A stretch of 64,000 nt of DNA. It comes from a virus. The notes under the pieces are model-generated. The model was not told the origin of the DNA, did not search any database, and worked only from the letters and a program-made list of their open reading frames with translations. Where the stretch lies: the IMG/VR virus record IMGVR_UViG_3300037478_000708, positions 1 through 64,000 of that record; one strand, 5' to 3'. A program made the translations under genes and the position numbers. Below, piece after piece: positions 147 through 43,632 of the stretch; the first letter of the stretch is position 1; each line of letters starts with the position of its first letter.

Positions 147-2258
147 ATGTCCGAGAAGCCCATCTACCGCAAGTCCCTGTCCTCCGCCCGAAAGCTCGGT
201 GAAGCCTTCCGCCGCGTCACCCGGCCCCTGAAGGGCGTTCCCGGCCTGGCGGAGCGGATCGGGCAGCTCAGCCTGGACGATCTCCCCGAGGATGAGCAGC
301 GGCACCACACGGGCTACGTAGGGGCGATCCTCGAGTTCGCGGCTCAGCACGCGCAGGGCTACCGCACCGGCTACGTGTCGGGCTCGGACGACGAGGAGAA
401 GAACGTCAACCGCAACGACCTGCGGGCCTTCGCGCAGCACTTCCTGAGCAAGAAGCCGGAGTATTCGCGCTCCAAGAGCGGGCTCGCCGCGTCGCAGATG
501 GAAGCCTGGCTCGTGGAGGCCGGCGGCACGCTCTTCCAGCAGTTCGTCGAGACCGTCATCGAGCAGGGTACGCGTTTCCTGGCCGTGTTCGAGGGCAAGC
601 TCGACATGGAGGAGCTGCGCAAGCTGCGCTCCGCGACCGGGAGCTTCATGCGCTTCGAGACGCTCATCAAGGCCGGCGAGACCAACGGCGGGGAGATCTT
701 CGAGTTCACGGTTCTCGACTGCACGGCCGCGCCGACCAAGGAGCGCGACGTCTACCCGCAGCTCAAGGGGAACGATCCGTCCGTGAAGGACAAGAGCGAC
801 GACGTTCGCTTCTCCGGGATGGGTCCTGTGGAGTCGTTGCTCCCCTCGAACCGCGACGAGTACGACCGCGTGTACGAAGAGGGCGGGCTGCCGCGCGAGG
901 CGCTCCTCGCGATCGCGGGCGCGGACGTCTTCGACAACTGCGTCGAGGTCGACAAGAAGCAGTTCGTGAGCGATCCGAACGGCGTGGCCTGGACGTCGGA
1001 GGACGGTTACACGTGGCTCCCCGAAGTCGATCAGATCGACGAGGCGGGAGGCTACGAGGCGGACGACGACGAAGACGAGGTGGACGACTACGGCTACGAC
1101 AAGCCGGAACAGGAGCCGCGCAACTACCGCGAGGCCGAAGACTCGGCGCGCACCTGCTCCCGCTGTCGCTACTACCGGCACGAGGGCAGTGACATCGGCT
1201 ACTGTCACCTGTACGCGACGCCCGTCGAGCCGGCGTGGACGTGCGACTCGTGGGAGGCGCGGCAGGAGGGCCTGATCGAGTCCGCGGAGGACGCGGCCGT
1301 GCAGTCCGACTACGGGGCTTGGACCGTCGTGCAGGAAGCCGAGCAGGTGATCGTGACCGTGGGAGAACGTGCCTGGCTCGTTCCGCACGGCTACGAAGAG
1401 GTGGTCGAGGGCATCGCGAGCATCGGGGAGATGTATCCCGAGCTGCCGAGCGAGCGCGACGTCATGGTCGAGGCGTACCTGCGCGACTACGCCGAGGAAG
1501 CGGGCGTTCCCTGCGGACGGCCGGCGCTCACGGAAGACGTCGAGTGCCGCACGGACGAGCGGGACGCGATCGTCGAGGCGAACAATCAAGAACGGCTTCA
1601 GTCACGGGTGGGCGACGTCCGCGAGGAGGCCGAGGAGATCGTGCGGGAGACCTATCCGGACGTCGCCGAAGGAAGCGAGCAGTGGGACCAGCTCTGCGAA
1701 GGGCTCGCGCGGTCTCTCCGCCGCGAGCTGAGCGAGCGAGGAAAGGTGGTTCCGGCGCTGGCGTTCCCGGACGAAGAGCCGACGACGCGCAAAGGCGCGT
1801 TCAAGGTCTCGTCGAAGGCGCTGAGCATGTTCCGGGAGGCCGGTATCCTCTCGCGTCCGAGCGACGCCGTGTTCAAGAAGGTGCTCCGCGTCGTGGACGA
1901 GATCCCGCGGAACGAGCTGCCGAAGCTCTTCGGCGTGACCTCGCCGGGTGCCGCGGCGATCCCGGACGCACAAGACGTCCTGGCCCGACAGCCGCGCCGG
2001 GCCTTCCAGATGTTCCTGCGCAACGTGCAGCGCGTCTCCCCGCGACTGCATAAGGTGCTCCAGCAGATCGGTCAGGAAAACGCCTCGCTGATCTTCTACG
2101 CCATCACCGAGCGCCTGTCCGGCGAGGACATGGCGAACATCATCTTCCGCCGCTACTTCGCGACGCAATCCGACCATCACAAGGCCGTTCCCGTTCGGAA
2201 CATCGAGAGCGTCGAAGAGGCCGACGATGACGAGGAGGGGGACGGAAAAAAGCCGTAA
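147..2258 (+). CDS. Large acidic multi-module protein (short, 703-aa form); contains a CxxC-x10-C-x10-C HiPIP-like/Zn module at about 1120-1255; probable head-associated protein
   Basis: GAGGAG RBS, genome-typical codon usage, ESVEE linker at 2205-2219 like those of the giant ORFs. Confidence 0.8.
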   Translation: MSEKPIYRKSLSSARKLGEAFRRVTRPLKGVPGLAERIGQLSLDDLPEDEQRHHTGYVGAILEFAAQHAQGYRTGYVSGSDDEEKNVNRNDLRAFAQHFLSKKPEYSRSKSGLAASQMEAWLVEAGGTLFQQFVETVIEQGTRFLAVFEGKLDMEELRKLRSATGSFMRFETLIKAGETNGGEIFEFTVLDCTAAPTKERDVYPQLKGNDPSVKDKSDDVRFSGMGPVESLLPSNRDEYDRVYEEGGLPREALLAIAGADVFDNCVEVDKKQFVSDPNGVAWTSEDGYTWLPEVDQIDEAGGYEADDDEDEVDDYGYDKPEQEPRNYREAEDSARTCSRCRYYRHEGSDIGYCHLYATPVEPAWTCDSWEARQEGLIESAEDAAVQSDYGAWTVVQEAEQVIVTVGERAWLVPHGYEEVVEGIASIGEMYPELPSERDVMVEAYLRDYAEEAGVPCGRPALTEDVECRTDERDAIVEANNQERLQSRVGDVREEAEEIVRETYPDVAEGSEQWDQLCEGLARSLRRELSERGKVVPALAFPDEEPTTRKGAFKVSSKALSMFREAGILSRPSDAVFKKVLRVVDEIPRNELPKLFGVTSPGAAAIPDAQDVLARQPRRAFQMFLRNVQRVSPRLHKVLQQIGQENASLIFYAITERLSGEDMANIIFRRYFATQSDHHKAVPVRNIESVEEADDDEEGDGKKP

Positions 2259-3622
2259 GCCCCGACTCCGGGAAGAAGGGCAAGGAGTCGGGGCAGAAGG
2301 CTCCGGGTGACGACGAGGAAGAAGAGGACGACGAAGAGGCCGAGAAGAAGGACAAGGACGACGAGAAGGTCGACAAGGCCAAGAGCGGCGAGAAGGAAGG
2401 CGCGGTTCCCTCCGAGCCGGAGACCGACGATCGCATGGACGATCCGCCGTTCTACCGCGACGACGTACAGGCGTACTACGACATGCGCGTCGCGTCGGGT
2501 GACTCGCAACCCGAGGCCATGTCGAAGACGAAGCGGCACTTCAAGCTGCGCGCGCTGATCGTCACGCCGACCGGCGAAGTGCGCTCGCCGGGCGTGGTCG
2601 ACGATCCGAGCCCGCCCGAGACCGCCGCTCCGCCGCCGGAGGGGGGCGAGGAAGAGCCTCCGGAGGGTGAAGAGGGTCCGGACAAGGGGGACCCGGGTTC
2701 CCAGATTGGGGACGAGGACCCGCACGGGTCGGATCCCAAGAAGGGGAAAGAGGAGGCTGCGCTCGACGCGCGCTGGCTCGCGTTCCTCTCAGGCGAGTCG
2801 CCCGTCGACGCGTTCGAGGCCGAGGAGGCGTGGGAGGCGCCGGATCTCGAGGAGCATTGGCGGCCGGCGCACCTACCTAAGCGCAACCGTCGGGCACACG
2901 TCGCCGAGAACGTCACGCGCGAACAGGCGCGGCTGTACGAGAAGTTCCAGCGGCTCGTGAACATGCGGGCGGGTGAGCTGCGGGCGCACCTGCGCTCGGA
3001 TGCCCTCGCGGAGACCATCGCCGCCGCTCGTCGCCAGAAACGGGGGCCCCTCGTCGAGGGCAAACGCATGGCTCGCTACGTGCTGCTCATGAAGGCGACG
3101 CCCGTGCACGAGTGGACCGCCGAGCTGTGGGAGCAGTGCCGGCAGGTCGTGTCGTTCATCGAACGCACCCGCCGCAACAACACGCCGTTGCTCGACGAGA
3201 ACGGCCGCGCGACGCGGAAGCTCATGGCGCTCCGGACGTGGGGGCACAACCCGACGGTTCCGGCCTACGTCACGGAGGCGGAGATCGAGCCTCTGCTCGG
3301 GCACCGGCAGGTGCTTCACCGCTACATCGATGCGACCCCGGGCATCGGCCTGGTCGCGTTGATGGCCGAGCGCAAGGCTCCGGCATGGGACGCGCTCAAG
3401 AAGGGCAAGGTGTCTCTGACGGATGAGGAGCGTTCCGCGGTGCTGCAGCGCAAGGCGGTTTGGCATCATGGGCGCAATGGGGAGGAGACGCCTGCGGTGT
3501 GGAAGACGCAAGTCGGCGGCGAGACGTGGTTCGTCACGAACACGCATCGCCTGTACCAGGCGTCGCCGACCTTGGAAGGCGCGATAGGTCGTTACCATAA
3601 GGTCGTCAAGCAGACGGCCTGA
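147..3622 (+). CDS. Frameshift-extended product (~1158 aa) adding an acidic linker, a DUF3140-like domain (FQRLVNM..EL..LRTWGHNP) and a C-terminal phage domain (TNTHRLYQASPTLEGAI)
   Basis: The -1 frame from 2252 reads AVSPDSGKKGKESGQKAPGDDEEEEDD... with native codon usage into MDDPPFY (2435). Confidence 0.75.
2232..2294 (+). promoter_or_regulatory. -1 programmed ribosomal frameshift signal: SD-like GGAGG, slippery A_AAA_AAG (2246-2252), 6-nt spacer, 11-bp stem 2259-2269/2284-2294
   Basis: All three dnaX/IS3-type elements are present; the -1 frame is open and continues into ORF 2435..3622. Confidence 0.85.
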
Positions 3623-3934: not shown

Positions 3935-4573
3935 ATGACGAAGACGAAGTACGACGAAGGTCGCGAGGCGTTCGCGGCCGGCACCGCGGCCGAGGGGAAC
4001 CCCTACGGCGGGGCGTCGAAGGCGCATAGCGAGTGGCTCCGCGGGTGGTCCGACGCGAGCCTCGAGGCCGAAGAGGGCGCTGCGCCCGCGGAGGCGCCCC
4101 CGGCGGCCGTCGAGCCCCTGGCGGAAGCGCCCCCGGCGGCCGTCGAGCCCCCGGTGGAAGAGCCCCCGGCGAAGCCGCTCGGTGAGGCCGGCTACGATCG
4201 CATCATGGAGCTGCTCGAGCACCCGCCTCTCGGGGATCTGCCCGACGGCGTGGTTCTCCCGCCCGATGGGGAGGTCCCCGAGGATCTCGCCGCGTGGCTC
4301 AAGGCGTGGAAGCAGCCGCTCGCGTTGCTCACCGTCGACACCGCGCTCCGGGCGGTGTCCTTCCGGATCAACGGTGCGTCCCGCGGTCGCCTGCGCGAGC
4401 TGTACCGGGGCATGTCTCCGGAACAGGTGTCGGCGGCCATGCAGGCGAACGCCGACGTGATCGCGGGGTTCGCCGATCAACGCGCCGCCGAGGCCGGGCT
4501 TCTCAACTCCATGCAGACGGCGCTCACGGAGAAGGCCGCGAGCTACCTGCTCACGGCCTTGTCGCTCGTCTGA
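3935..4573 (+). CDS. Hypothetical protein with N-terminal Rmf-like motif (YDEGREAF..G..NPY..EWLRGW) and a duplicated EAPPAAVEP
   Basis: Motif recognition; tandem near-duplicate at about 4091-4150. Confidence 0.55.
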   Translation: MTKTKYDEGREAFAAGTAAEGNPYGGASKAHSEWLRGWSDASLEAEEGAAPAEAPPAAVEPLAEAPPAAVEPPVEEPPAKPLGEAGYDRIMELLEHPPLGDLPDGVVLPPDGEVPEDLAAWLKAWKQPLALLTVDTALRAVSFRINGASRGRLRELYRGMSPEQVSAAMQANADVIAGFADQRAAEAGLLNSMQTALTEKAASYLLTALSLV

Positions 4574-25145: not shown

Positions 25146-28100
25146 ATGCCCGCGACGACCTTCCAACGCGCCGTCAGGAACGTTCGCCACGTATCCGAGA
25201 TCGACAGCGGTTCGCCGCTCTCGGCCGTCGTGGGGCGTGCCCTGGCGGCGCTAGGAGGCGAAGAGCCCGAGGTCGTCTACGAGGTCGACGGTGGTCACGT
25301 CGTTCAGGGAGATACGCAGGCCGTCTTCCTGGGAGACGACGGCGAGCTTGCGGTCACCGACATGGACCTCGGCGAGTCCACGGATCGCTACGTGGACCTC
25401 CTCAAGCAGGGCTTCATGCGTCGGGCGCTGAACCCGCCCAAGCCCAAGCCCAAGGCCGAAAAGAAGGTCCGTCCGATCGTCGCGTGCAAGGACTGCCAGG
25501 ATTGGCACCGAGAGGGCAAGCACACGAAGTCGGCCGCGGAGCGCAAGGCGAACCGCAAGGCCAAGAACGAGGCCGCGGTCGGCGTGAGCGAGCTGCCCGC
25601 CGGGCTCGGCGTGCCGCGCGCGCAGATGCCGCAGATCCAGTCCGGCCTCGTGCCGGAGTTCCTCGCGCACCTGTCCGAGAACGGCGTGCGCGTCAAGCGC
25701 GGTCAGCGCAAGGTCGGCAGCTTGAAGCCGACGCAGGACGGCGTGACCTCCGTCAAGGCCGAGGCGCTCGCGCGCACCGCTCCGAAGGACAAGCTCCGCC
25801 TGCCCGTCATCGTGAGCAGCGACGGCTACATCCTCGACGGACATCACCGCTGGGCCGCACTCGTGAGCATCGGTGAGAACGAGCGCATTCAGACCTACGA
25901 GGTCGCCGTGCCGATGCGCAAGCTCTTGGAGCTGGCCCGACGCTTCGAGAAGGTCGGCTACAAGGAACACGGTGAGGCGATCGAGGATGCGGAGCACGTC
26001 GACGAGTTCCTCGCTCTAGGGCTCCCGACCAAGCTGCTTCCGCTCAAGGGCGAGCTGGCGCGGCTGGTTCGATCGCAGCGCGGTCCTGTTTCGGTCGAGC
26101 AAGCCCGCAACTATGTCGCGACCGATCCCTACGTGCGCTTCGATCCGACCGAGCAGGAGATCGTCGCCGCGCTCAAAGCCCTGGGGGGTCGGCTGCGCGG
26201 CAAGGCGTTCGTCTTCGAGAACGTTCCGATCGAGGAGGAGATCTCGCGTGCGCAACTCGCCTCGTTGGAACGCGCGCTCGACAAGATCTTCGCCGCGGCC
26301 GGCATCGACGTCGAGTTCACCAAGCACTTCCACGAGCGCGTCAACGATCCGCGCAACGGGAAGCCGATCACGGTCGAGGAGCTGGCCGGGATCTTCCGCG
26401 AGGTCTGGTCGAAGCACCGCAAGACGCTGGAGTCAGTGGACGTGGACTGGAGGGCCATCATCCACGACACGACGTCGGCGATCAACATCCCCGTCGTGCT
26501 CGACTACGACCCGCGCAAGGGCGAGGTCGAGCTGGTCGCAAAGACCGTCATGCGCCGCAAGGCGTTCATGGCGCGCGAGCCGCGACTCAACGTGACGAGC
26601 GGCGTGGCCGAGCGGGGAGAAGTCGACGAGGCTGCGGAACGTTCCAAGGTGCCCGGTCTCCGGTTCGACGTGCGCAAGCAATGGCCCGGCTACGCCTTCA
26701 AGGTGGTTCACGTTCCGTCGGGGCTGCCGATTTGGGGTTCCGATCTGACGAGCGTCAAGCTCGCGACGTGGGCGGGCTCCAACGTCGTCAAGGACATCCG
26801 CAAGGTGGTCAAGGCGGCCAACGCGCACTTTGCGCGGTTCGACTGGGACAAGCCGCAGGGGGAGCTGGACCTCGTGGGGGCGAAGCGTCTCGCGCGGGAA
26901 TTCTCGCTCAAGTTTCGGGAGGAGGCCGTACCGCAGAGCATCAGTTCGGTTCTGGTGAACGAAGCTCGGAACGTCGACGAGGCGTACGCGGCCTTCGACC
27001 ATACGCACGCTCCCGCCGGAACCTCCGCGCGGGAGAACTTCCCGAAGTTCATCCTGACGGGGCTCTACGACTCGCCTGCCGTTGCGCGGCAGGCCGGGCA
27101 GTACGTGCGCAGGGTCAGCGTCGAGCCGGGTGTCTCTTCGACGCGGGAGTGGAACCGCATGAGCGACGCGCAGATCAAGGCGCTCTACAAGAAGCTCGGG
27201 CTTTCCGCGTCCGGACCGACGATCGGTACGACGAACACGTTGCCCGGTCAGCCGGTCAGCGAGCACGAACTCGCAGTGGATGAGGGCGTCTACGACCCGT
27301 TCGCGCTCAAGGCCGTCTTCATGACGGGTGGCGCGGGCAGCGGCAAGAGCTTCGTCTCCGAGAAGATGTTCGGCGGGATGGGCCTCAAGGTCGTCAACTC
27401 CGACGCGGCGCTCGAGCGCGCGATGGCGAAGGCCGGGCTCGATCTCAAGAAGGATCTCGGTCTCGAGCAGGTGCAACGCGAGGGCGGCATCCGCGATCAG
27501 GCCAAGCTGCTCACGTCCAAGAAGCTCGACGTCTACGTGAAGGGTCGTCTCGGGCTCATCATCGATAGCACGGCCGCGACGAGCGCGAAGGTCACGCGGC
27601 AGGTCGACCGTCTCCGCGCGCTCGGCTACGACGTCTGCATGGTGTTCGTGAACACGAGTCTCGAGACGGCGCTCGCGCGCAACCGCGCTCGGGCACGCGT
27701 CGTGCCGGAGCGCATCGCCACTGCGGATTGGAGGAAGATCCAAGAGAACCTCAAGACCTACCGCACGCTGTTCGGTCCGGCCAACTTCCGCGAGGTGCAC
27801 AACGACGAGGTGCTCACGCCGCGCGAGGTCGTCTCGCGTCTCGTGCCGCAGCTCACGCGCGTCGCCATGTCGCTCCTCAACCGGCCCGTCCAGAATCCGA
27901 TCGGCAAGAAGTGGGTCGCGGACGAGATCGCGGCGAAGAACCGCCAGACCGCGCGGCCGGGTCACGCCCAACGGATGCTCGCGGCGAGCATCGAAGACGA
28001 GGGGGAGCCGCTCTTGGCTGAAGCCTTGAAGAAGTCCAAGGTGGTTCCTGGGGTGGCGTTCGAGACCGAGAAAATTGGGTCCTACACCTACTTGACCGTG

Positions 28101-31100
28101 CGGCACATTCCGTCGGGTAAGGCCATCTATTCACTCACACGCGGACCGATTCCGGGAGTGCGGAAGACCGTTGCTGTCGTGGAGAAGATCCTCAAGCGGA
28201 TGGATTGGAATGTGCCGGAGGATCAGCTTGACAAGAAGACCGCTGTTCGTTTGGCGGCGGAGATCGGGCAGAAGATCCCGCTCGACGTCTACGGCAATTA
28301 CGAGATCCGCGAGTCCGCGCTCGACGAGGACATCGTTCTCCTGCTCGGCGGTCTCGGTGCGGTGGCCTTCGGGGGGCTCCTCGGCGCGCTCAGCGTGAAG
28401 GCCAAGAGGCTCGTGCAGGAGATCCGGGCGCTTCACAAGCGCGGGCAGATGAGCGCGGCCGAGCAGGCTCTCTCCAAGATGAGCGCGAGCGACCGCGAGA
28501 AGATCAATCAGCTCTTCGCACGCGAGACGCGTCGCCTACGCAACGAGGACAGCTTTTGGCTGTTCCCCAACGGCGAGCACGTGCCGGACCGTCCGGATCG
28601 CGTGAGCGACACGCGGGCGCTCGAGCGCGCCACTCAGCGGGTCAAGAAGGGCGACGTGAACGAGTCGATGGCGACGGACAAGCGCATCGCCGCGATGGCA
28701 ACGCGTCTCCTCGATCGCATCGACAAGTTGCAGGCGCAGTACGTCAAGCTCGAGAAGGACGTCCGCGCGGAGCACGAGAAGCGCGCGAAGCAGGTGGAGG
28801 CGATCCGAAACGCTCACGGAGGCGTCGGTGTTCCGGATCTGCCCGCCGCGGAGAAGGCCAAGGTCGACGCGCTCTGGGCCGAGCACGACCACAAGCGCGC
28901 GGAAACGTGGTGGGACAAGAAAGGCGACCCGATCGTGCAGCGTCTCGCCAGGCTGCTCGAGATGGCCACCGCGCCGACGTTCTCCTCGAGGTGGTCCAGC
29001 ATCTACCAGCACTACTTCGTGGTCGGTGGCGTGGGCAAGCTCGACACGAAGCAGATTCGCACCGATCTCCGCACGCTGCACCTACGGCCGTTCTCGAACG
29101 AGTTCTACGAGCGGGTCGTGCGCGGTCGCGCCAAGGTCGGCGTTGCCACACTCGCGGTCGGTGACCACTTCGCGATCGATCGCGGTCTGGAAACCGGGTA
29201 CTACGTCGTGCAGGCGATCACGCCGAAGCGAACGCAGGTCACGGCGCGCAATCTCGACACCAACGAGCAGATCAAGGTGCGCGGCAAGGAAGAGGTGATT
29301 CCGCTGTCGCAGCACGAGGCGACGCAAGGGGTTCGGATCCACAAGGCGTACACGAAGCGGCTGGCGCAGATCGCCGAATCGCTCGACGAGGACAACATGG
29401 ACGAAATCTGGGTCACGCTGAGCCGAGAGGAAGCCGCGGAAGAAGCGGAGCTGGATCTCGTCGAGCACGAGTGCATCGTCATGGACGAACTCGCCGAGAC
29501 GATCGAGTACGGCTTGAGCCTTCTCGACGTCGATCAGCTCAACACCTTCTTCGGTCTCAAGGCGGAGGAGTTCGAGACGGCCGTGGAAGAGGGCGACTTC
29601 GAGCGCGCCGAGCTGATCGCGCTCGGGCTGCTCGAGGGCCTCCCGCTCGACGAGTACCGCCGCATGACGCTGGGCTCCCGCATGCGTCGGCTGCGTGCCC
29701 GTCGGATCGGTGTCACCAAGGCCGTCCGCTCCGGCCAGACCACCCGCGCCGAGCTGAGGCGGGAGAACCGCAAGCGACGGATGAAGCGCAGGCGCAGCCC
29801 CACGATGAAGATGCGCGCCAAGCGCTACCTCCGGAAGACGCGGATGCGTCAAGCTCGACGCCGGCCGCTGTCGATCGCGAAGGAGTCGCTCGACGAGTAC
29901 GGCCGCCGTCGCTCCTCCGGAGGGGACCCGCGTTGGATCAAGGCGAAGTACGCCGGCACCGACGCCAAGGGCCAGCCCTTCAAGAAGGGCGAGGAGGTGC
30001 TCTACTACCCCCACGGCAAGAAGATCTACGCGGGCGAGAACGCCAAGTCCGCGTGGCGCGACTTCCTGTCCATGCGCGGCGACGAAGAGGGCACGCCGTA
30101 CGCGGAGAGCCTCGACGAGGGACCGTTCGACGCGTCTTTCATGCTCGAGGATCTCAACGAGGACTACGAGGTCCCCTCGGACTACGTGCTCACGCGTGTC
30201 ACGAGTCACCGTCATCGCGATCAGCTCCGCAGCGCGTTCGGTGACGATGCCATCTCCGTGATGGCTTGGAAGCCGGGTCAGAATTTCATCGTCGATGGCG
30301 TCGAGGCGTTCGTCGTTCCGAAGGCGCGGTTCGACGAGGAGGTCTCCAACATCGGCTACGGTCCGGGCAAGCGGTACACCCCGCTCAAGCGGAAACCGGC
30401 CCTGATGCGCGGCAAGTACCGCATCGGGGTCTGGATGGGTACGAACACGTACCGCGACAACCAATGGCTCAAGTCGCGCGGCTTCCGCCGCCTGGAGTTG
30501 GACGAATCGCTCGCGCCGATTCCCGGGGATCAGTACCGTTACAACCAGGCTGTGAAGTCACTGCACAAGCGGCGTCCGACGAACTTGTCGCACGAAGAGT
30601 CCGTGCGCATCTTGGCGTGGGACCACGGGAAGGGGAGGGCCTTCATCGTGGATCTGCTTACGAAACGGGCAGGCTATTCGGAAGCAGCGGCCAATGCGCT
30701 GATCGACAAAGTTACGAAGGGCGACATTGATGAGAGCTACGGAGTGCCGTCTGAGGCCGTGGACGAGGTGGCTCCGCCCGGCTTCGAGGGCGCGGTCAAG
30801 GCGATGAAGAAGTCCGGCGACGTCGACAATCCCTACGCGCTCGCGTGGTGGATGAAGAAGCGCGGGATGAAGTCGCACAAGAAGGAGTCGGTCGAGGAGG
30901 CGAGTCCGCACGAGGCGATCAAGGTCGGCGATCAGGTCGTGACGAAGGAGGGCGTCGATCCTTCCGGCTTGATCGGCAAGGTGACGAAGCTCGAAGGCAA
31001 TCGGGCGGTTGTCCAGTGGGGTCGCGGCCGTTCATCCCCGTCGCTCCATGCGCTCCGCGACCTCCTGTCGGCTACGAAGAAGGACAGGAGCAGCACGCGA

Positions 31101-32090
31101 GGGCTCCGTAGGCTCGAGTCGGTCGAGGAGCAGTCCGGTGACTACCGCGCCACGATTCAGATGAACATCGAATGGGACGGCTCGCAGTACACCGTCGAGC
31201 TGCCCCAGAATCTCGGCCCCGCCGGCACGTGGCCGCAGAACGTGTGGGAGTTCGACACCTACGAGGAAGCGCTGGCGTTCGCCAAGCTCTACGAGCAGTA
31301 CGAGCGCTTCTACACGGTCGTCTGGAACCTCTCGCCCGAAGACACCGTGCGCTTCTCGCAGCCCGGCACCAAGCCGACGGCCTACGACGCGGAGTCGCGC
31401 GCATCCGTTCAGCTCAGCGAGGATGCGGTTCGCGTGCCTCCGATCGGGCCCGCGGAGGACAAGCGCTTGCGTTGGGCGAAGACGCAGTGGAAGGAGCGCA
31501 CGATCACCAAGGTCGGGCAGGAAGTGATCGCCTACGTGGGGCGCACCGCGATCGCGTCGGGGCTCTCGATGCGCGACCTCATCCTCAAGCTCAAGCTCTA
31601 CGGGTTGGAGCCGCGCACGTTCCGGCGCGTCGGTCGGTGGGAGTTCGACACCTACGAGTCGGTCGAGGAGGCCGACGCCTACGACAACGGCAGGGCGCCC
31701 AAAGGCGTCAAGCAGTTCACGAGCTTGAACGACGCGGCCGTGTACGACGACGCCTACAAGAAGGGCTCGACCGAGATCTGGTACGCGATCGACGCGGGCA
31801 TCGGTGCGCTGTACATGGGCCTGGACCATCTTCGCAAGTACGAGCCCCGTGCGATTCCGACCGCGGCGACCCTGGCGAAGACGCACGTGCGAGTGGGTAA
31901 GATCGCGGAGACTCGGCCCGAGCGGATCTTCGGCCTCATGCAAGGTGAGCGGTGGAGTCCGCAGGGAGAAGCGCGTACGCTGATCCGCAAGCTCGGACTG
32001 CGCCACACGTCGATGAACGTCGGCGACGTCATCAAGGTCGGGGGCAAGGTGCTGTTCGTGGACCGCGTGGGCTTCAAGAAGCTGGACTAG
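25146..32090 (+). CDS. Giant modular protein 1 (2314 aa), putative head-packaged polyprotein: ParB/Srx-like module, FTKHFHERVNDPRN module, P-loop kinase, Arg-rich core-like segment, SH3/KOW-like modules, YodL-like C-terminus
   Basis: DGHHRW (~25835); GGAGSGKS (27327-27350); HTSMNVGDVI..VDRVGFKKL; modules separated by ES[LV][DE]E / xDE linkers. Confidence 0.85.
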   Translation: MPATTFQRAVRNVRHVSEIDSGSPLSAVVGRALAALGGEEPEVVYEVDGGHVVQGDTQAVFLGDDGELAVTDMDLGESTDRYVDLLKQGFMRRALNPPKPKPKAEKKVRPIVACKDCQDWHREGKHTKSAAERKANRKAKNEAAVGVSELPAGLGVPRAQMPQIQSGLVPEFLAHLSENGVRVKRGQRKVGSLKPTQDGVTSVKAEALARTAPKDKLRLPVIVSSDGYILDGHHRWAALVSIGENERIQTYEVAVPMRKLLELARRFEKVGYKEHGEAIEDAEHVDEFLALGLPTKLLPLKGELARLVRSQRGPVSVEQARNYVATDPYVRFDPTEQEIVAALKALGGRLRGKAFVFENVPIEEEISRAQLASLERALDKIFAAAGIDVEFTKHFHERVNDPRNGKPITVEELAGIFREVWSKHRKTLESVDVDWRAIIHDTTSAINIPVVLDYDPRKGEVELVAKTVMRRKAFMAREPRLNVTSGVAERGEVDEAAERSKVPGLRFDVRKQWPGYAFKVVHVPSGLPIWGSDLTSVKLATWAGSNVVKDIRKVVKAANAHFARFDWDKPQGELDLVGAKRLAREFSLKFREEAVPQSISSVLVNEARNVDEAYAAFDHTHAPAGTSARENFPKFILTGLYDSPAVARQAGQYVRRVSVEPGVSSTREWNRMSDAQIKALYKKLGLSASGPTIGTTNTLPGQPVSEHELAVDEGVYDPFALKAVFMTGGAGSGKSFVSEKMFGGMGLKVVNSDAALERAMAKAGLDLKKDLGLEQVQREGGIRDQAKLLTSKKLDVYVKGRLGLIIDSTAATSAKVTRQVDRLRALGYDVCMVFVNTSLETALARNRARARVVPERIATADWRKIQENLKTYRTLFGPANFREVHNDEVLTPREVVSRLVPQLTRVAMSLLNRPVQNPIGKKWVADEIAAKNRQTARPGHAQRMLAASIEDEGEPLLAEALKKSKVVPGVAFETEKIGSYTYLTVRHIPSGKAIYSLTRGPIPGVRKTVAVVEKILKRMDWNVPEDQLDKKTAVRLAAEIGQKIPLDVYGNYEIRESALDEDIVLLLGGLGAVAFGGLLGALSVKAKRLVQEIRALHKRGQMSAAEQALSKMSASDREKINQLFARETRRLRNEDSFWLFPNGEHVPDRPDRVSDTRALERATQRVKKGDVNESMATDKRIAAMATRLLDRIDKLQAQYVKLEKDVRAEHEKRAKQVEAIRNAHGGVGVPDLPAAEKAKVDALWAEHDHKRAETWWDKKGDPIVQRLARLLEMATAPTFSSRWSSIYQHYFVVGGVGKLDTKQIRTDLRTLHLRPFSNEFYERVVRGRAKVGVATLAVGDHFAIDRGLETGYYVVQAITPKRTQVTARNLDTNEQIKVRGKEEVIPLSQHEATQGVRIHKAYTKRLAQIAESLDEDNMDEIWVTLSREEAAEEAELDLVEHECIVMDELAETIEYGLSLLDVDQLNTFFGLKAEEFETAVEEGDFERAELIALGLLEGLPLDEYRRMTLGSRMRRLRARRIGVTKAVRSGQTTRAELRRENRKRRMKRRRSPTMKMRAKRYLRKTRMRQARRRPLSIAKESLDEYGRRRSSGGDPRWIKAKYAGTDAKGQPFKKGEEVLYYPHGKKIYAGENAKSAWRDFLSMRGDEEGTPYAESLDEGPFDASFMLEDLNEDYEVPSDYVLTRVTSHRHRDQLRSAFGDDAISVMAWKPGQNFIVDGVEAFVVPKARFDEEVSNIGYGPGKRYTPLKRKPALMRGKYRIGVWMGTNTYRDNQWLKSRGFRRLELDESLAPIPGDQYRYNQAVKSLHKRRPTNLSHEESVRILAWDHGKGRAFIVDLLTKRAGYSEAAANALIDKVTKGDIDESYGVPSEAVDEVAPPGFEGAVKAMKKSGDVDNPYALAWWMKKRGMKSHKKESVEEASPHEAIKVGDQVVTKEGVDPSGLIGKVTKLEGNRAVVQWGRGRSSPSLHALRDLLSATKKDRSSTRGLRRLESVEEQSGDYRATIQMNIEWDGSQYTVELPQNLGPAGTWPQNVWEFDTYEEALAFAKLYEQYERFYTVVWNLSPEDTVRFSQPGTKPTAYDAESRASVQLSEDAVRVPPIGPAEDKRLRWAKTQWKERTITKVGQEVIAYVGRTAIASGLSMRDLILKLKLYGLEPRTFRRVGRWEFDTYESVEEADAYDNGRAPKGVKQFTSLNDAAVYDDAYKKGSTEIWYAIDAGIGALYMGLDHLRKYEPRAIPTAATLAKTHVRVGKIAETRPERIFGLMQGERWSPQGEARTLIRKLGLRHTSMNVGDVIKVGGKVLFVDRVGFKKLD

Positions 32091-32092
32091 AG

Positions 32093-35000
32093 ATGCCGAA
32101 GAACATCCAAGGGCTGACGGGCGAGATCGTGACGTACATGATGCGGGGGCGCCGCACGCCGTCGGATCTCCGGACGCACTTTCGCCTGTCCGTCAAGACG
32201 GCGCAGCACGTCTACGACCTCGAGCCCGACGCCTTCGGCCCCTCCGGTAGGGGCCGGCAGTGGTACCACACGCAGGTCGGGGCGCTCCTCAAAGCCCCGG
32301 ACGCGTTCGAGGCGGAGATCCCTGCGACCCCGCACCGGTCCAGCCTGAACGAGGTCGCCGCCGGGGCGCTGCGCGCTTCCGTGAGCCCGCTGGCCGAGCA
32401 CGAGCTGTCCGAAGGCATCGCGGACACGCATCAGGTCAAGATCGCCACGCGCACGCTGCAGCTCTCGGCGATGGGCGCGAAGATCATGGGTGGCATGGAC
32501 CACGCGGGCGCGGTCAAGGTGCTCCGCGCGAACGGCTGGCCGGACACGAAGATCAAGGCCGCCCTCAAGAAGCACGGCCACGCGGACCCCGACGTCAAGA
32601 AGTGGCTCGGCGAGTCCAGTGACACGCTGTCACTGGACGAGGCCCGTCCGGAGCCGATCAAGGTCCCCGAGACGGTCTACAAGGAGAAGCTCGCCAAGCT
32701 GTCGTCGAAGGACAAGGAAGCGCTGCGCAACGTGACGATGGCGTCGCGTGGAGACCACCGGCTGTTCAAGCCGCTGGACGCGGACGGCGCCGCACTCATC
32801 AAGCGGCTGTTCGGCGAGGTGACCGAGACGCACGTCGGACGCGGGCCGCAGAAGCGGGAGAGCGCCGCGGAGGGTGCCGGTGTAGGAAGTCCGTCGCGCA
32901 CCGGCTCGCACGCGATCGTCGAGGGTGTGCTGCGTGTGAACGACCGCATTCGCGAGCGCGAACTGCTCGGGGAAGCCGGCGGCGCGGGTCAGGAGGCCCC
33001 GAAGGATCCGAAGTGGGGCACGCCCTACGGCTTGCCGATGCTCCACCCGAGCGGGACGGCGATTCGCATGCGCCGCAAGGGGCAGCGCGTTCGTTTCTTC
33101 GACCTGAATGGCAAGCAGGTCGGCCCCGAGCACGCCAACGTTGCGCCGGCCGTCGCGTGGGCGATGAGCAAGGGTTTCGTCACGGAGAGCGTCGACGAGG
33201 CCGGCAAGCCGCTCAAGGTGAAGTGCGGGCAGTGCGGCAACGTCTTCGCGACCAACAAGGACTACCCCAAGTGTCCGAAGTGCGGCAGCAAGGACGTCGA
33301 CCTGCCGGAGTCGGTCGACGAAGCCGCGAGCAAGACGGTGCTCGGCAAGTACAAGCAGAAGACCGTCACGCTGCGCGACTACGGCGATGGAGACGTGGAC
33401 ATCCTCGTCGGGTCGCTGGCCGTGCCTCTGGACACTGCGAAGAAGAAGGGGATCGCGCCTCCGAAGAATCCGCGTGACCTCGCTCAGGTGAGCGCGTTCT
33501 TGGACAAGGCGCTCCCGATCCTGTTCCCGGCGAAGGCGGGGTTCTCGATCGAGTCCGTGGACGAGGCGTCCGGGACCACCGTTCGCGCGGCGGTGCGGCT
33601 CGACTGGTTGAAGGGCGCGACTGCGGGCGTCACGCCGGACGAGAAGGTCGTGGTCTTCCGCTCGTCCGACTACGACAACAAGGGAACCGTCAGCGGTTCC
33701 TACGCCGTTCTCGGGCGCTCTTCGCAGCGCGACCTGTTCTCGTCGCTTCACCTCGAGTGGAACTCCGGCTTCACCCTCGACCGGGGGCAGCACGCGCAGA
33801 ACCGCAAGCGGGCGGAGCAGGCGTTCAAGAAGCTGCCGACCAGCGAAGCCAACGACGACAAGACCGACGACCTGCCCGCGAAGGCCGAAGCCGACCTCAA
33901 GGCCAAGGCGAAGGAGATGGGCGCGATCAAGGTCTCCGGCAAGGGCCCGAGCGTGAACGCGACGTTCGACGACAAGAAGAAGGCGCAGGCGTTCCTCGCG
34001 CACGCCGAGAAGGTCGGCAAGGCCGCGATGCGCCGCTCGGGCGACGAGGAGTACACGGTTCACATCGACGAGTCGGTCGAGCGGTACGCGGGCGCGAAGA
34101 TGGTGGGCGGTTCCGGGGCGGTACCGTTCAGCGCGCTCAAGGTGGGCGCTCAGTTCCGCTTCCCGAAGTCCGACGAGATCAACACGAAGACCTCGGAGGC
34201 GGGCAGCTACAAGACGGCGAACGGACGCAAGTTCAAGACGGGCAAGCACGCGGCGGTCATCCCCGCGAAGTCGGACGAGTCGCTCGACGAAGCCGCCGGA
34301 ACGATCGTGCGGACCTTCTCCTCGGGGTACGTGGCGCTCCGCCTGCCCAGCGGCATCACCGTGCTCGCGCGGGACACGGGGGATGGTGAGCCCATCGCGC
34401 ACGCGAACGTGGCGCAGGCCAAGAAGGGTCTCGCCCGGTTCCTGAGCGCGAACCCCTCGGTGAACGCTCGCGTGCGCGACGCGAAGCGGCCGTTCTACAT
34501 CCTCGTCGAGGACGTCAGCGAGAGCCTCGACGAAGCCGCTCCCAAGAAGAGCAAGGGCCACATCGCGTTCCTCGGCGACTTCGAGTACCTCATCGTCGGT
34601 ACCGACCTCGCACGCGCTCCGATCAGCAACGTCATGGACGTGCGCACGGGGAACCGCCTCGCGCGCTTCGAGGCGACCAAGGCGGCGGCCGACACCGCGA
34701 TGAAGATCGCGTTCCAGGCGTTCGGCAAGCCGGTCGACCCGAAGGCGATGCAGCGCATGCGCAAGCTCCTCGGAGAGAGCCTCGAGGAAGACATCGACGA
34801 GGATGTGCGTCCCGGGCAGATGTTCGTCGTCGTCGACGTGTCGGTGCGCGGCGGGAAGATGATCGGCGAGATCTACACCGGTGCGGCGAGGGCCGACGCG
34901 GCGGCGAGCAAGCTGAAGGCGCGTGGGCAAAACGTGCAGGTCATCGACGCGCTCTGGTACGAGCCCGCCCGTCAGAAGCTCATCAAGTCGGGGCTCGTCG

Positions 35001-38000
35001 GGGAGGACGCGGAGCCCCGCGTGCTCGCACTTGGGGACGGTCGCTATGCCGTCGATCTGGGCGAAGGCGAGGCGCTGGTCAAGATCGTGGACACGCTCGA
35101 GGAAGCGATCGACGAAGCCGGTCGTCTCGCGGTCAAGTGCATGGAGTGCGGAAAGAAGTTCAAGACCGCTTCCATGCTCCCCGACTGCCCGAAGTGCGGC
35201 GGTTCGGACATCGAGCCCGACTACGACGCGCCCTCCGCGAAGAAGAGCTACGCGGCCGGCAGGACGCGCAAGCGTTCCGTCGGACACGAGTCGATCATCG
35301 AAGGCGCCGTGCCGAAGGTGGGCGATCGCGTCGCGCTTTCTCGCGACCACCTCCGCGGCACCGGCAACCAGACGGGTACCCTGCCGCAGTTGCGGGGAAC
35401 CGTGACCGCGGTCAGCGGTGCGGGCATCGCGACCGTCGACTGGGGTCGCGGGGTGAAGTCCCCGCGCGTGAACGTGAAGAACCTCGTCGTGCTCGGCAAG
35501 GGCGACAGTCTCCCCGTGGAGTCCGCCGACGAGGGGCTCGCGCCGCTCGAGGTCACCGTCACGGACGTCTTCGACAACGGCGCGTGGTGTCACCCGCGCT
35601 ACACGGTCAACGTTCGCACGAACAACAACGAGGACTACACGTTCGGCATGTTCGAGCCCGGCACGGAGCCCGCGGCGCTCCAGACCGTCGAGGACTTCCC
35701 GAACTTCACGAACTTCATCAAGGGCGCCGCTCGCCCCGGCGAGTACATGGAGCGCGTCGAAGTCGCCGCTCTGCCCGACGTGCTGCGCACCCAGCTCCAG
35801 ACGCTTCTCGCGCGGGCCGACACCTACGACCGCACGATGGAGTTCGATGAGGCCGCCGACGAGTCGGCGATCCGCAGCTTCGACGTCATGGCGCAGATGC
35901 GCTGGGAAGAGACGCTCAAGCCCGGCGCGAAGGTGATGGTCTACTGGACCGCGGGCAGCTTCGGGCACTACCAGGGGAAGGCCACGGTCAAGTCGCTGAA
36001 CAAGTCGAGCGTGACTGTTACGCTCGACCACGATGTTCCCGATCGGAGCCGTCTCGGTGGCGCCGGTTACGCGAAGGGCAAGAAGATCAACGTGCCGCGC
36101 GTCATGGCGAACTACGGCCGCAACACGTGGTCGATGGGCTTCAACGCGGTGCACCCGCTCGGCGGGCCGCAGGCGTTCATGGAGGGCGCGGTCGACGAGT
36201 TCACGAGCGCGGCCGTGCCTTCCGTCGGCAACCTGCATCCCTGGGCGCATCCCTACGGCAGCGAGGTCGAGTTGATGGACGAGCCCGACGAACTGGACGA
36301 CGAACAGCTCGACGCGCGCGGCAACATCGAGCCGATCGACGAGGCGATTCAGCCGACGGTTGCGGGCTTCCGGATGTTCGTGGTCGGTGCGCTGACGCAG
36401 TGGGACAAGCAGCAGGAGGTGCGCGCGTCGAAGAAGCCCGGCGGCAGTCACAGCCCCTACGCGCTGTCGCTCTACCTCGAGGCGCTCCACCGCGGGGAGA
36501 AGAGCAGCACCATGCGCGGGGTGAAGCCCGACTCGATGGATCCCGAAGATCTGCGCAAGTTCGCCAAGATGCTCGGCGAGCAGTTCTTCTCCGACATGCC
36601 CCCGATCCGGAAGACGCTCAAGGCGATCGACGCGTACCTCGCGTCGGGCAAGGCGCCGAAGTACCCCGGCTCGAGCAGCCGCTCACTTCGGAGCGAATCC
36701 CGCGATGAGACTGCACGTCTCGCCAAGGGGCTCGTCTACACCGCGGTCGCCGCGGCGGAGGACGGCCGGCTGACGGAAGCCGTCGCCAAGCTCCGGGCCG
36801 CGGGCGAGACGCTCGACGAAGACGCCCTCGAGGGCCTGCTTCCCGAAGACGTCGTGGAAGCGCTCAACGAGTGGGCAGACGAGAACGACGTCGACGACGC
36901 GATCGTCGAAGGCTACGCGGTCGCGCTTCGGCTCGGCCTGGACGACCACGTGTACGGCCTCGACGAAGCCACCTCGGCGGCGAAGCTGCTCGACACGGCC
37001 GACAGCAAGCTCATCTCCGAGCTGCGCAAGGGACTCGTCAAGGTCGGCGCCGCCGCCAAGGAAGCGAAGCGCGGTCAGGCCGAGATGGAGAAGCGTCTCG
37101 GTGTGGGCAAGAGCACGGCCAAGGATCAGCTCAAGATCGTGGTCAAGGAACTGGAGGCGTACCGCACCCTGCTCGATCAGATCATCAAGCAGGCACAGGT
37201 GGCCGAGAGCGTCGACGAAGACCTCGCCGAAGCCGGGTCGCTGCACGACGCGCTCCTGAACCACTTCGTCCGCAACCGCGGGCGCTCCTACACGGCGAGC
37301 GAGATCGCGCGGCTCTTCTCCGCGTCCACCGCGGAGTCGATGAAGACGCTCTCCTCGCTCGTCAACGAGGGCACGCTCATGTTCCGGCGCGGCGAGGGCT
37401 ACTCCCTGCGCGGCAATTCGAGCGCGCTGCGCATCCCCGCCAGCCTGCACGGTTCTCGCGTGGGCAACTTCGTGAACCAACGCACGGAGGAGGCGGAGTT
37501 GGACGAGGTGCGCAACTCCGGTCGCCCGACGAACTGGCGGGGCAGCGGCGAGGCGGGTCGAGACGCTCTCCAGGCCCGCGGTTCGGCGAAGACCAAGGCC
37601 CGCTTTCAGGTCACGCAGCTCGTGGCCAAGAGCGGCACGACGCCCGCGGTGCTCGCCGACGTGTCGAAGCTCTCCACGTCGATGCCGGCGCTCAAGTACC
37701 GGGGCAAACCGGGCGAGAGCTACGACATCGTGTACAAGGGCCGGGTCATCGGCACGCTGCGCTCGTCAGGGAGCGGCTCGCTGCCCTGGACGGTCAAGCG
37801 CAAGGACGGCACCAAGCTCTCCGACGTCGGCTTCGGCTCCGTGCACCACGCCGTCACGCGCGCCCTGGCCGACGCTCTCGGCGACGCCTGGGGCAACGCG
37901 GAAGAGTCCGCGGATGGCCTTGGTGAAGGACTGGGGCGCAAGGTCTTCTACACCCGGGATGGCGTCGGTTCGTCGAAGTACACCGTCAACTACCACGATG

Positions 38001-43422: not shown

Positions 43423-43632
43423 CGCCACGTAGACCCTCCACGCGCTGCGGGCGTTTTCAAGCGGGAAAGCTGTAGACATTGCGCTGCTACCTCTGCAAAA
43501 AGGGCATTGCGGGAGGCGAACCCCGCGTGACGCACAAGGCACCCGTCAACGGCCGGCTGCTGCCGAAGACATCGCATGCTGCGTGCGTCGCGGCTGCGCG
43601 GAAGCGTGGGTACGTCCGACCGCGGACGACCC

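What the first reader, a model, noticed from the sequence alone, without database searches (positions are those of the whole stretch)
2232..2294. Textbook -1 programmed ribosomal frameshift joining two annotated ORFs in a non-tail-chaperone gene
Seen: frame 0 ends GGA AAA AAG CCG TAA. The heptamer A_AAA_AAG (2246-2252) uses an AAA Lys codon, rare in this gene, where AAG dominates. An SD-like GGAGG lies 7 nt upstream. A perfect 11-bp stem (GCCCCGACTCC 2259-2269 / GGAGTCGGGGC 2284-2294) starts 6 nt downstream. The -1 frame is open with native codons (AVSPDSGKKGKESGQ..DDEEEEDDEE..) into ORF 2435..3622, whose ATG has no evident RBS. Established: this is the dnaX/IS3 frameshift architecture. Inference: 703-aa and ~1158-aa isoforms at a fixed ratio, the long one adding DUF3140-like and other modules. 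An ESVEE linker directly precedes the shift, suggesting a third, stoichiometry-controlled polyprotein.
Basis: partly seen in the sequence, partly recalled or inferred. Interest (0 to 1): 0.8.

Follow-up and report, generated by a model that had tools for sequence, protein, structure and literature searches.

The report
Conserved -1 frameshift in phage gene
An uncultured high-GC phage almost certainly uses a classic "slippery sequence plus hairpin" signal to make a 703-residue and a 1158-residue version of one protein of unknown function; the signal is kept in about ten relatives, while other relatives encode the long version as one ordinary gene.

Summary
ORF1 (147-2258) ends GGA AAA AAG CCG TAA. 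A_AAA_AAG (2246-2252) is in the canonical register. A perfect 11-bp hairpin (2259-2294) starts 6 nt downstream. The -1 frame is open from 2231 to 3622 with no ATG, GTG or TTG before 2435.

Comparative data make a programmed -1 ribosomal frameshift the best reading by far (about 0.9):
- Ten metagenomic relatives with DNA, plus five with only protein or gene-table data, keep ORF2 in the -1 frame.
- They use three different canonical heptamers: A_AAA_AAG, A_AAC_CCU and G_GGA_AAG.
- Each heptamer is followed within 0-1 codons by the 0-frame stop, then by a hairpin whose sequence differs between lineages.
- In three relatives with DNA the ORF2 ATG is lost, yet the conserved protein motif upstream of it remains.
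- The 183-nt "gap" has coding-type GC3, and its length changes only in multiples of three.
- At least seven more distant orthologues, one of them in the same gene order, encode ORF1 and ORF2 as a single ORF.

The protein's function remains unknown. It contains a DUF3140-like module and a widespread 85-aa C-terminal module. The "ESVEE polyprotein" idea is not conserved. This is a new, clean member of a known kind of recoding. The scan had no earlier look-alike.

The parts
147..2258 (+). ORF1, the zero-frame product (703 aa). It has a conserved N-terminal region of about 450 aa, a HiPIP-like Cys4 insert (about residues 337-366), a helical C-terminal region, and an acidic tail ending GDGKKP*.
   Evidence: Homologues are 46-53% identical over the full length, and all end KK[APQR]*.
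2234..2238 (+). SD-like GGAGG, 7 nt 5' of the heptamer. It is a possible upstream stimulator.
   Evidence: It is only partly conserved in the A_AAA_AAG clade (G-rich). L005 and L012 (A_AAC_CCU group) have AAGGAG 11 nt upstream. Inferred, not shown.
2246..2252 (+). Slippery heptamer A_AAA_AAG, in register with ORF1.
   Evidence: It is identical in L006, L007, L010/L011 and L019. It is replaced by A_AAC_CCU (L005, L012, L020, L021) or G_GGA_AAG (L022) at the same place.
2256..2258 (+). Zero-frame stop TAA, one codon after the heptamer.
   Evidence: A stop lies 0-1 codons after the heptamer in all 10 relatives with DNA.
2259..2294 (+). Stimulatory hairpin: 11-bp perfect stem (2259-2269 / 2284-2294) with a 14-nt loop. 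It starts 6 nt after the heptamer.
   Evidence: A hairpin is predicted at the same position in every relative, with at least 5 different sequences. Two of the 6 basal pairs show compensatory double changes.
2252..2434 (+). Linker translated only in the -1 frame. It is Lys/Glu/Asp-rich and predicted disordered.
   Evidence: GC by codon position is 0.72/0.36/0.85, against 0.69/0.42/0.89 in ORF1. There is no start codon. Length varies only in multiples of 3 among relatives. pLDDT is below 50.
2435..3622 (+). Annotated ORF2 (395 aa from ATG), the C-terminal part of the transframe protein. Module a is about 2447-2590, the DUF3140-like helical module about 2942-3217, and the widespread C-terminal module c about 3383-3619.

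Best explanation
This is a programmed -1 ribosomal frameshift. Ribosomes translating ORF1 reach A_AAA_AAG (2246-2252) with tRNA-Lys in the P and A sites. They are slowed by the 11-bp G+C-rich hairpin that begins 6 nt downstream, possibly helped by the upstream SD-like GGAGG and the nearby zero-frame stop. Most ribosomes read CCG and terminate at TAA, giving the 703-aa protein. A fraction slips back one base, reads GCC GUA AGC and onward, and continues through a disordered Lys/Glu-rich linker into ORF2. That gives a 1158-aa protein which adds three modules: a small conserved module, a DUF3140-like helical bundle, and an 85-aa C-terminal module found on many other proteins.

Shown by sequence and comparison: the signal, its register, its conservation, translation of the linker in the -1 frame, and the existence of the same long protein as a single ORF in orthologues.

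Inferred: that slippage is ribosomal, its efficiency, any role of the SD-like element, and the biological purpose. The likely purpose is a set ratio of a short form lacking the C-terminal modules to a long form carrying them.
For: 1. Canonical signal in the correct register.
2. All eight close ORF1 homologues end KK[APQR]*, although the flanking residues vary.
3. In every relative with DNA or a gene table, ORF2 lies in the -1 frame. Gaps from stop to ATG are 140, 146, 158, 176, 194, 197 and 200 nt, all equal to 2 mod 3.
4. There are three heptamer types at the homologous spot: A_AAA_AAG (window, L006, L007, L010/11, L019), A_AAC_CCU (L005, L012, L020, L021) and G_GGA_AAG (L022). Each is followed by a stop within 0-1 codons and a hairpin of lineage-specific sequence. 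RNAalifold keeps 6 basal pairs in 9 of 9 sequences, 2 of them with compensatory changes.
5. In L005, L012 and L020 the ORF2 ATG codon is Ile or Thr, and the first start lies after the invariant D[DE]P[PE][FY]YR[DN]D motif. ORF2 therefore cannot be made by ordinary initiation there.
6. The linker has a coding-type codon-position GC profile in the -1 frame only.
7. P0015, P0016, P0017, P0020, P0021, P0028 and P0033 are single ORFs colinear with ORF1 plus ORF2. P0016 is syntenic (Thy1 ... 174 aa ... gene ... 87/206/152/100 aa).
8. An independent Logan re-assembly at 12.9x is identical over 1800-2800.
9. No promoter-like or terminator-like site lies between the ORFs.
10. In E. coli, A_AA.A_AA.G and G_GG.A_AA.G are among the most efficient heptamers and C_CC.U is a shift-prone A-site tetramer. 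Functional hairpins start 4-10 nt after the motif (PMC4066793).
Against: There is no direct expression evidence. No protein, ribosome-profiling or RNA data exist, so efficiency could be low.

In the A_AAA_AAG clade, L021 and L022, ORF2 keeps an ATG with a GGAG 12 nt upstream in the A_AAA_AAG clade. Some independent initiation of a 395-aa ORF2 cannot be excluded.

The SD-like stimulator is only partly conserved. High-GC hosts often carry a tRNA-Lys(CUU), which lowers slippage at AAG (PMC4066793). The host is unknown, and the phage encodes no tRNA.

The hairpin in L006, L007 and L010 has a C.A mismatch where the window has A-U.
Confidence: 0.9

Rival explanations
1. Two independent genes. ORF1 terminates at 2258 and ORF2 is initiated on its own at ATG 2435. 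The heptamer and hairpin are incidental, or serve mRNA stability.
For: An ATG preceded by GGAG at -16..-13 is conserved in the A_AAA_AAG clade. Gene callers annotate two genes everywhere.
Against: The ATG is absent in L005, L012 and L020, although the conserved motif upstream of it is kept. The linker is coding-like and changes length only in multiples of 3. The frame relation is -1 in all relatives. The heptamer, stop and hairpin are conserved with three interchangeable canonical heptamers. Fused orthologues exist.
Confidence: 0.05
2. The frame change happens at the RNA level. RNA polymerase stutters on the A6 run and inserts an extra A in some transcripts, giving a long-form mRNA.
For: A6 is a homopolymer. 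Transcriptional slippage produces dnaX gamma in Thermus (PMC5009743).
Against: Known slippage-prone runs are longer, about 8-9 or more (own knowledge). Four relatives use A_AAC_CCU and one uses G_GGA_AAG, which have no run longer than 3. Exact codon register and a hairpin 6 nt downstream are features of ribosomal, not transcriptional, slippage.
Confidence: 0.03
3. Sequencing or assembly indel, or a recent pseudogenising mutation, in what is really one continuous 1158-aa ORF.
For: Distant orthologues are single ORFs. The break lies at a homopolymer.
Against: The same A6 is recovered in an independent re-assembly at 12.9x. The identical GGAAAAAAG-NNG-TRA arrangement occurs in 5 other lineages of about 50% protein identity, from different samples. 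Non-homopolymer heptamers sit at the same site in 5 more.
Confidence: 0.02

Closest known systems
E. coli dnaX gamma/tau frameshift cassette, and the 'reversed' dnaX arrangement of some bacteria
   Same: The heptamer A_AAA_AAG is identical. There is an upstream SD-like element and a simple downstream stem-loop a few nt after the heptamer. Two products share an N-terminus, and the long one carries extra C-terminal domains. As in the reversed dnaX genes described in PMC5009743, the zero-frame stop lies directly after the shift site and the long form comes from frameshifting. A single-ORF version exists in relatives.
   Different: The protein is unrelated: there is no DnaX or AAA+ clamp-loader domain and no Rfam match to any frameshift element. 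The gene is in a phage. SD spacing is 7 nt rather than about 10 nt. Efficiency is unknown.
IS3-family (IS911, IS3) orfA-orfB transframe transposase
   Same: A_AAA_AAG or related heptamers, an upstream GGAG, a downstream hairpin or pseudoknot starting 4-10 nt after the motif, and an orfA stop close to the heptamer. The fusion protein is the frameshift product (PMC4066793).
   Different: There are no HTH or DDE transposase domains and no inverted repeats. It is a syntenic single-copy phage gene with no paralogue in the genome.
Lambda G/GT-type tail assembly chaperone frameshift
   Same: It is a conserved -1 PRF near the 3' end of a dsDNA-phage gene, giving a short and a C-terminally extended protein. 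Slippery sequences differ between lineages at the same position.
   Different: ORF1 is 703 aa against about 140 aa. It is not located between the tail tube and tape-measure genes; the neighbours in relatives are ThyX and small unknown ORFs. There are no Pfam or PHROG chaperone hits. An unchecked first-stage note places this genome's tail chaperone elsewhere (e1-5828155).
Carboxysome CsoS2A/CsoS2B frameshift
   Same: A -1 PRF with a 3' stem-loop inside a long, largely disordered multi-module protein. It yields two isoforms, and only some homologues use frameshifting (PMC5009743).
   Different: In CsoS2 the frameshift gives the short form. The protein and biology are unrelated.

Membership tests
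Canonical -1 programmed ribosomal frameshift site | X_XXY_YYZ heptamer in the zero-frame register, inside the overlap of the two ORFs | tested here: met
   A_AAA_AAG is at 2246-2252. The overlap window is only 2231-2258.
Canonical -1 programmed ribosomal frameshift site | Stable RNA structure starting 4-10 nt 3' of the heptamer | tested here: met
   An 11-bp hairpin starts 6 nt downstream, at -27 kcal/mol. Such stems are rare genome-wide.
Canonical -1 programmed ribosomal frameshift site | Phylogenetic conservation of the signal and of the -1 ORF relation | tested here: met
   Ten relatives with DNA, three heptamer types, a stop and hairpin always present. Proteins end KKx*.
Canonical -1 programmed ribosomal frameshift site | Demonstrated transframe protein and measured efficiency | not testable with these tools
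   No RNA or proteome data are available. Only a DNA run holds the sequence.
dnaX or other Rfam frameshift elements (sequence-family membership) | Match to a curated covariance model | tested here: not met
   cmscan of 2000-2600 at E <= 1 gave no hit. It works like dnaX but is not a homologue of its element.
IS3-family transposase orfAB | HTH and DDE transposase domains | tested here: not met
   Pfam, PHROGs and NCBIfam gave no such hit for ORF1 or ORF2.
Phage tail assembly chaperone G/GT | Small chaperone protein upstream of the tape measure; chaperone family hit | tested here: not met
   ORF1 is 703 aa, has no PHROG or Pfam hit, and has ThyX-side synteny.
DUF3140 (PF11338) | Pfam match above the gathering threshold; same fold | tested here: met
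   26.4 bits against a cut-off of 25, E = 9.7e-6, residues 232-323 of the -1 product. The AF2 module matches an Atlas DUF3140 cluster: TM 0.73 by target, 100 aa aligned, rmsd 2.8.
HiPIP-like 4-Cys domain (in ORF1) | C-x2-C ... C ... C-x2-W pattern with a significant profile or fold match | tested here: inconclusive
   Cys 337, 340, 353 and 366 are conserved. The PDB profile hit to HiPIP has only E = 0.86. The Atlas match has TM 0.44 over 60 aa on a poor model.

The most novel reading that the evidence does not exclude
ORF1/ORF2 may be an expandable multi-module 'cargo' protein, perhaps virion-packaged or injected. Its conserved N-terminal domain of about 300 aa would act as the anchor. The same domain heads a giant ORF of more than 1600 aa, with inserted modules and S-x-D-E-A linkers, in another phage (L013). 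The frameshift would set how many copies carry the C-terminal DUF3140 and module-c payload. The family has flipped repeatedly between a hard-wired fused gene and a PRF-split gene, using three interchangeable heptamers. That would make it a natural experiment in tuning isoform ratio.
Probability: 0.15. Interest if true: 0.65.

Novelty: new member of a known kind. Interest (0 to 1): 0.5.

Why it matters
It adds a well-supported -1 PRF family outside the tail-chaperone, capsid, IS and dnaX classes, in an uncultured phage lineage with no GenBank phage relative.

The family is unusually informative for recoding. Homologous sites use three different canonical heptamers and several hairpins, and close relatives alternate between split and fused genes. 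It could therefore serve as a benchmark for PRF predictors, and as a system for asking why a fixed short-to-long ratio is selected.

Practically, annotation pipelines call two genes in all relatives and leave a 140-200 nt 'intergenic' gap that is really coding.

Tried and rejected
- Function searches led nowhere. Pfam, PHROGs and NCBIfam give nothing for ORF1, and only DUF3140 for ORF2. PDB sequence profiles give nothing significant.
- AF2 of ORF1 was poor (pLDDT 52), so its BFVD search is meaningless.
- AF2 of ORF2 was good for its modules, but Foldseek/PDB and VIA-align wide gave no convincing match (best Z 5.8, helical). ESM Atlas feature searches were blank.
- Cluster names for module-c proteins are uninformative.
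- blastn and tblastn against 50,697 GenBank phages gave no match.
- No RNA holder was listed for the region, so nothing can be said on expression.
- The only run that could be laid is Logan contigs of the probable source sample, so the agreement is not independent of the sample.
- Capsid, portal and terminase Pfam models do not hit the genome, so I could not place the gene relative to a structural module myself.
- The other two AAAAAAG sites in the genome were rejected as PRF sites. The one at 134460 is intergenic. The one at 130844 is in register in a Lys-rich tail but has no hairpin, and the -1 frame ends after 17 codons.
- ESVEE as a conserved cleavage linker before the shift is not conserved in homologues.
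- No paralogues of ORF1 or ORF2 modules occur elsewhere in the genome.
Full report
**1. Observation**

The window is bases 1-64000 of a 156,008-bp, 66.7% GC IMG/VR virus record. ORF1 (147-2258, 703 aa) ends GGA AAA AAG CCG TAA. The heptamer A_AAA_AAG (2246-2252) sits in the X_XXY_YYZ register. GGAGG lies at 2234-2238. A perfect 11-bp stem (2259-2269 / 2284-2294, 14-nt loop) starts 6 nt after the heptamer.

The -1 frame opens at 2231, only 25 nt before the stop. It runs to 3622 with no ATG, GTG or TTG before 2435. Slippage therefore gives a 1158-aa protein with the junction GDGKK/AVSPDSGK.

- AAA is used 2 times against AAG 27 times in ORF1.
- AAAAAAG occurs only three times in the genome.
- Perfect stems of 11 bp or more start at 34 positions on both strands.
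- No promoter-like or terminator-like site lies between the ORFs, and no Rfam family matches.

**2. The 'gap' is translated in the -1 frame**

GC by codon position for 2252-2434 in the -1 frame is 0.72/0.36/0.85. That is the profile of ORF1 (0.69/0.42/0.89) and ORF2 (0.71/0.47/0.86). The other two frames give non-coding profiles.

**3. Relatives**

ORF1 has eight close homologues (46-53% identity, full length, 545-763 aa). All end KK[A/P/Q/R]* although the preceding residues vary.

In every contig with gene calls, the DUF3140 gene follows 146-200 nt later in the -1 frame. Stop-to-ATG gaps of 140, 146, 158, 176, 194, 197 and 200 nt are all 2 mod 3.

DNA was obtained for ten relatives:

| Loci | Signal |
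|---|---|
| L006, L007, L010/L011, L019 | A_AAA_AAG, one codon, TAA or TGA, then a hairpin GCCCCG(N)CUCC...GG(A/G)G(N)CGGGGC |
| L005, L012, L020, L021 | A_AAC_CCU, one codon, UAG or UGA, then different hairpins (for example GGCCCUCC/GGAGGGCC, GCCCCUCGUCG/CGACGAGGGGC) |
| L022 | G_GGA_AAG, immediately UAG, then yet another hairpin |

All hairpins fold at -22 to -35 kcal/mol and start at or within about 8 nt after the heptamer. On an alignment of nine sites, RNAalifold keeps six basal pairs in 9 of 9 sequences, two of them with compensatory double changes.

In L005, L012 and L020 the codon aligned with the window's ATG 2435 is Ile or Thr. The first possible start lies after the invariant D[DE]P[PE][FY]YR[DN]D motif. 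In those phages the conserved N-terminal part of ORF2 can only be reached from ORF1.

**4. Fused orthologues**

A profile search with the ORF2 alignment found 776 representative clusters. P0015 (1077 aa), P0016 (1241), P0017, P0020, P0021, P0028 and P0033 are single ORFs. They align colinearly with both the ORF1 N-terminal 450 aa or so and ORF2.

P0016 lies in the same gene order as the window's relatives (ThyX, 174-aa gene, the gene, then 87/206/152/100-aa genes). It has no in-frame slippery site at the junction.

On a tree of the ORF1-like region, fused and split forms are interleaved. L020 (split) is sister to P0016 (fused), and P0017 (fused) is sister to L005/L012 (split), both with SH-aLRT of at least 99. 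At least three changes of state are forced. The tree is unrooted, so the direction of change is not established. The homologous 'heptamer-N3-stop-GCCCC hairpin' and the shared K-[KP]-x-[VL]-[SG]-P junction peptide suggest one old PRF cassette that was later lost by fusion at least twice.

**5. Artefact check**

An independent Logan assembly of the run that holds the sequence gives an identical sequence over 1800-2800. That run is probably the source sample, and depth is 12.9x. Combined with section 3, a homopolymer error is excluded. No RNA run holds the region.

**6. What the proteins are**

ORF1 has no family hit. It carries a conserved N-terminal region, a HiPIP-like Cys4 insert (weak evidence only) and a variable helical C-terminus. 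The AF2 model was poor.

The -1 part was modelled at pLDDT 74. It has these parts:
- a disordered linker (residues 1-67)
- a small module (68-115)
- a second low-confidence stretch
- a DUF3140-like helical bundle, supported by Pfam at 26.4 bits against a cut-off of 25 and by an Atlas DUF3140 cluster at TM 0.73
- an 85-aa alpha/beta C-terminal module

That C-terminal module alone accounts for most of the 627 clusters at E < 1e-10. It usually sits at the extreme C-terminus of proteins of 94 to about 2000 aa, including nucleotidyltransferase and D12 methylase fusions. No solved structure matches convincingly.

The ORF1 N-domain also heads a giant ORF of more than 1604 aa in L013, with about 670 aa of extra modules inserted between S-x-D-E-A linkers. 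Function is unknown. A packaged or polyvalent-protein role (compare PMC5512222) is speculation.

**7. Mechanism and comparison**

The signal is that of E. coli dnaX and IS3/IS911. In E. coli, A_AA.A_AA.G and G_GG.A_AA.G are among the most efficient heptamers, C_CC.U is a shift-prone tetramer, and functional hairpins start 4-10 nt after the motif (PMC4066793). The ORF arrangement, with the zero-frame stop right after the site and the long form made by frameshifting, equals the 'reversed' dnaX genes described in PMC5009743.

This is not a homologue of any of these: there are no DnaX, transposase or tail-chaperone domains and no Rfam hit. The SD-like element is canonical in the window, and in L005 and L012 it is AAGGAG 11 nt upstream. 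Elsewhere it is only G-rich, so its role is uncertain.

**8. Verdict**

This is a real, conserved -1 PRF (about 0.9) in a new phage gene family: a new member of a known kind. The ESVEE/polyprotein inference is not supported by conservation. Interest is moderate. It is a very clean new recoding family with natural split and fused variants and heptamer turnover, but the mechanism is textbook and the protein's function is unknown.

Noticed in passing
window 3935-4573 (+): The N-terminus (residues 5-41) of a 212-aa ORF two genes downstream of the frameshift gene hits Pfam RMF, ribosome modulation factor. E = 7e-6 and 26.4 bits, just under the 27.9 cut-off. This is a possible phage-encoded ribosome-hibernation-like domain.
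   Followed up: no
genome 130844-130850 (outside the window; G000:C1): A second in-register A_AAA_AAG lies in the Lys-rich N-terminal tail of the gene at 130770-131999. The -1 frame stops 17 codons later and there is no strong hairpin (-12.8 kcal/mol). It is probably not programmed.
   Followed up: partly
genome 134460-134466 (outside the window): The third AAAAAAG lies in a non-coding stretch just upstream of an ORF ending at 136205, whose first Met in the printed translation lies about 30 nt after the heptamer. The apparent 'zero frame' there has non-coding GC3. It is not a frameshift site.
   Followed up: yes
L013:2654-7465 (Ga0307928_10001964): A giant ORF of more than 1604 aa begins with the ORF1 N-domain. 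About 670 aa of unrelated modules are inserted between ORF1-like segments, separated by STDEA, SQDEA or SLDES linkers. The ORF1 scaffold appears expandable into a polyprotein.
   Followed up: partly
window about 3383-3619 (C-terminal module of ORF2) and proteins P0037-P0161: This conserved module of about 85 aa has the motif ..AVWHHG..PAVWK..W[FY]V[TS]NTHR.Y.. It is found in several hundred representative clusters, nearly always at the extreme C-terminus. Partners include nucleotidyltransferase (PF01909) and D12 DNA methylase proteins. It is not in Pfam.
   Followed up: partly
L017 against L020; P0017 against L005/L012: Close relatives differ in whether the gene is fused or split by PRF. The tree forces at least 3 state changes.
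   Followed up: partly
ORF2 relatives, alignment A2 columns about 188-196 (window about 2770-2800): Relatives carry ES[LIV][DT]EA between module a and the DUF3140 module. This is the same motif that first-stage notes report as the linker of the giant ORFs at 25146-39811. The window itself has a degenerate EEAALDA.
   Followed up: no
window 25146-32090 and 43576-44859: The 2314-aa ORF contains an AAA_33/Zeta-toxin-like kinase domain at residues 722-874. The 427-aa ORF combines a ParB N-terminal domain with an N6/N4 DNA methylase domain.
   Followed up: no
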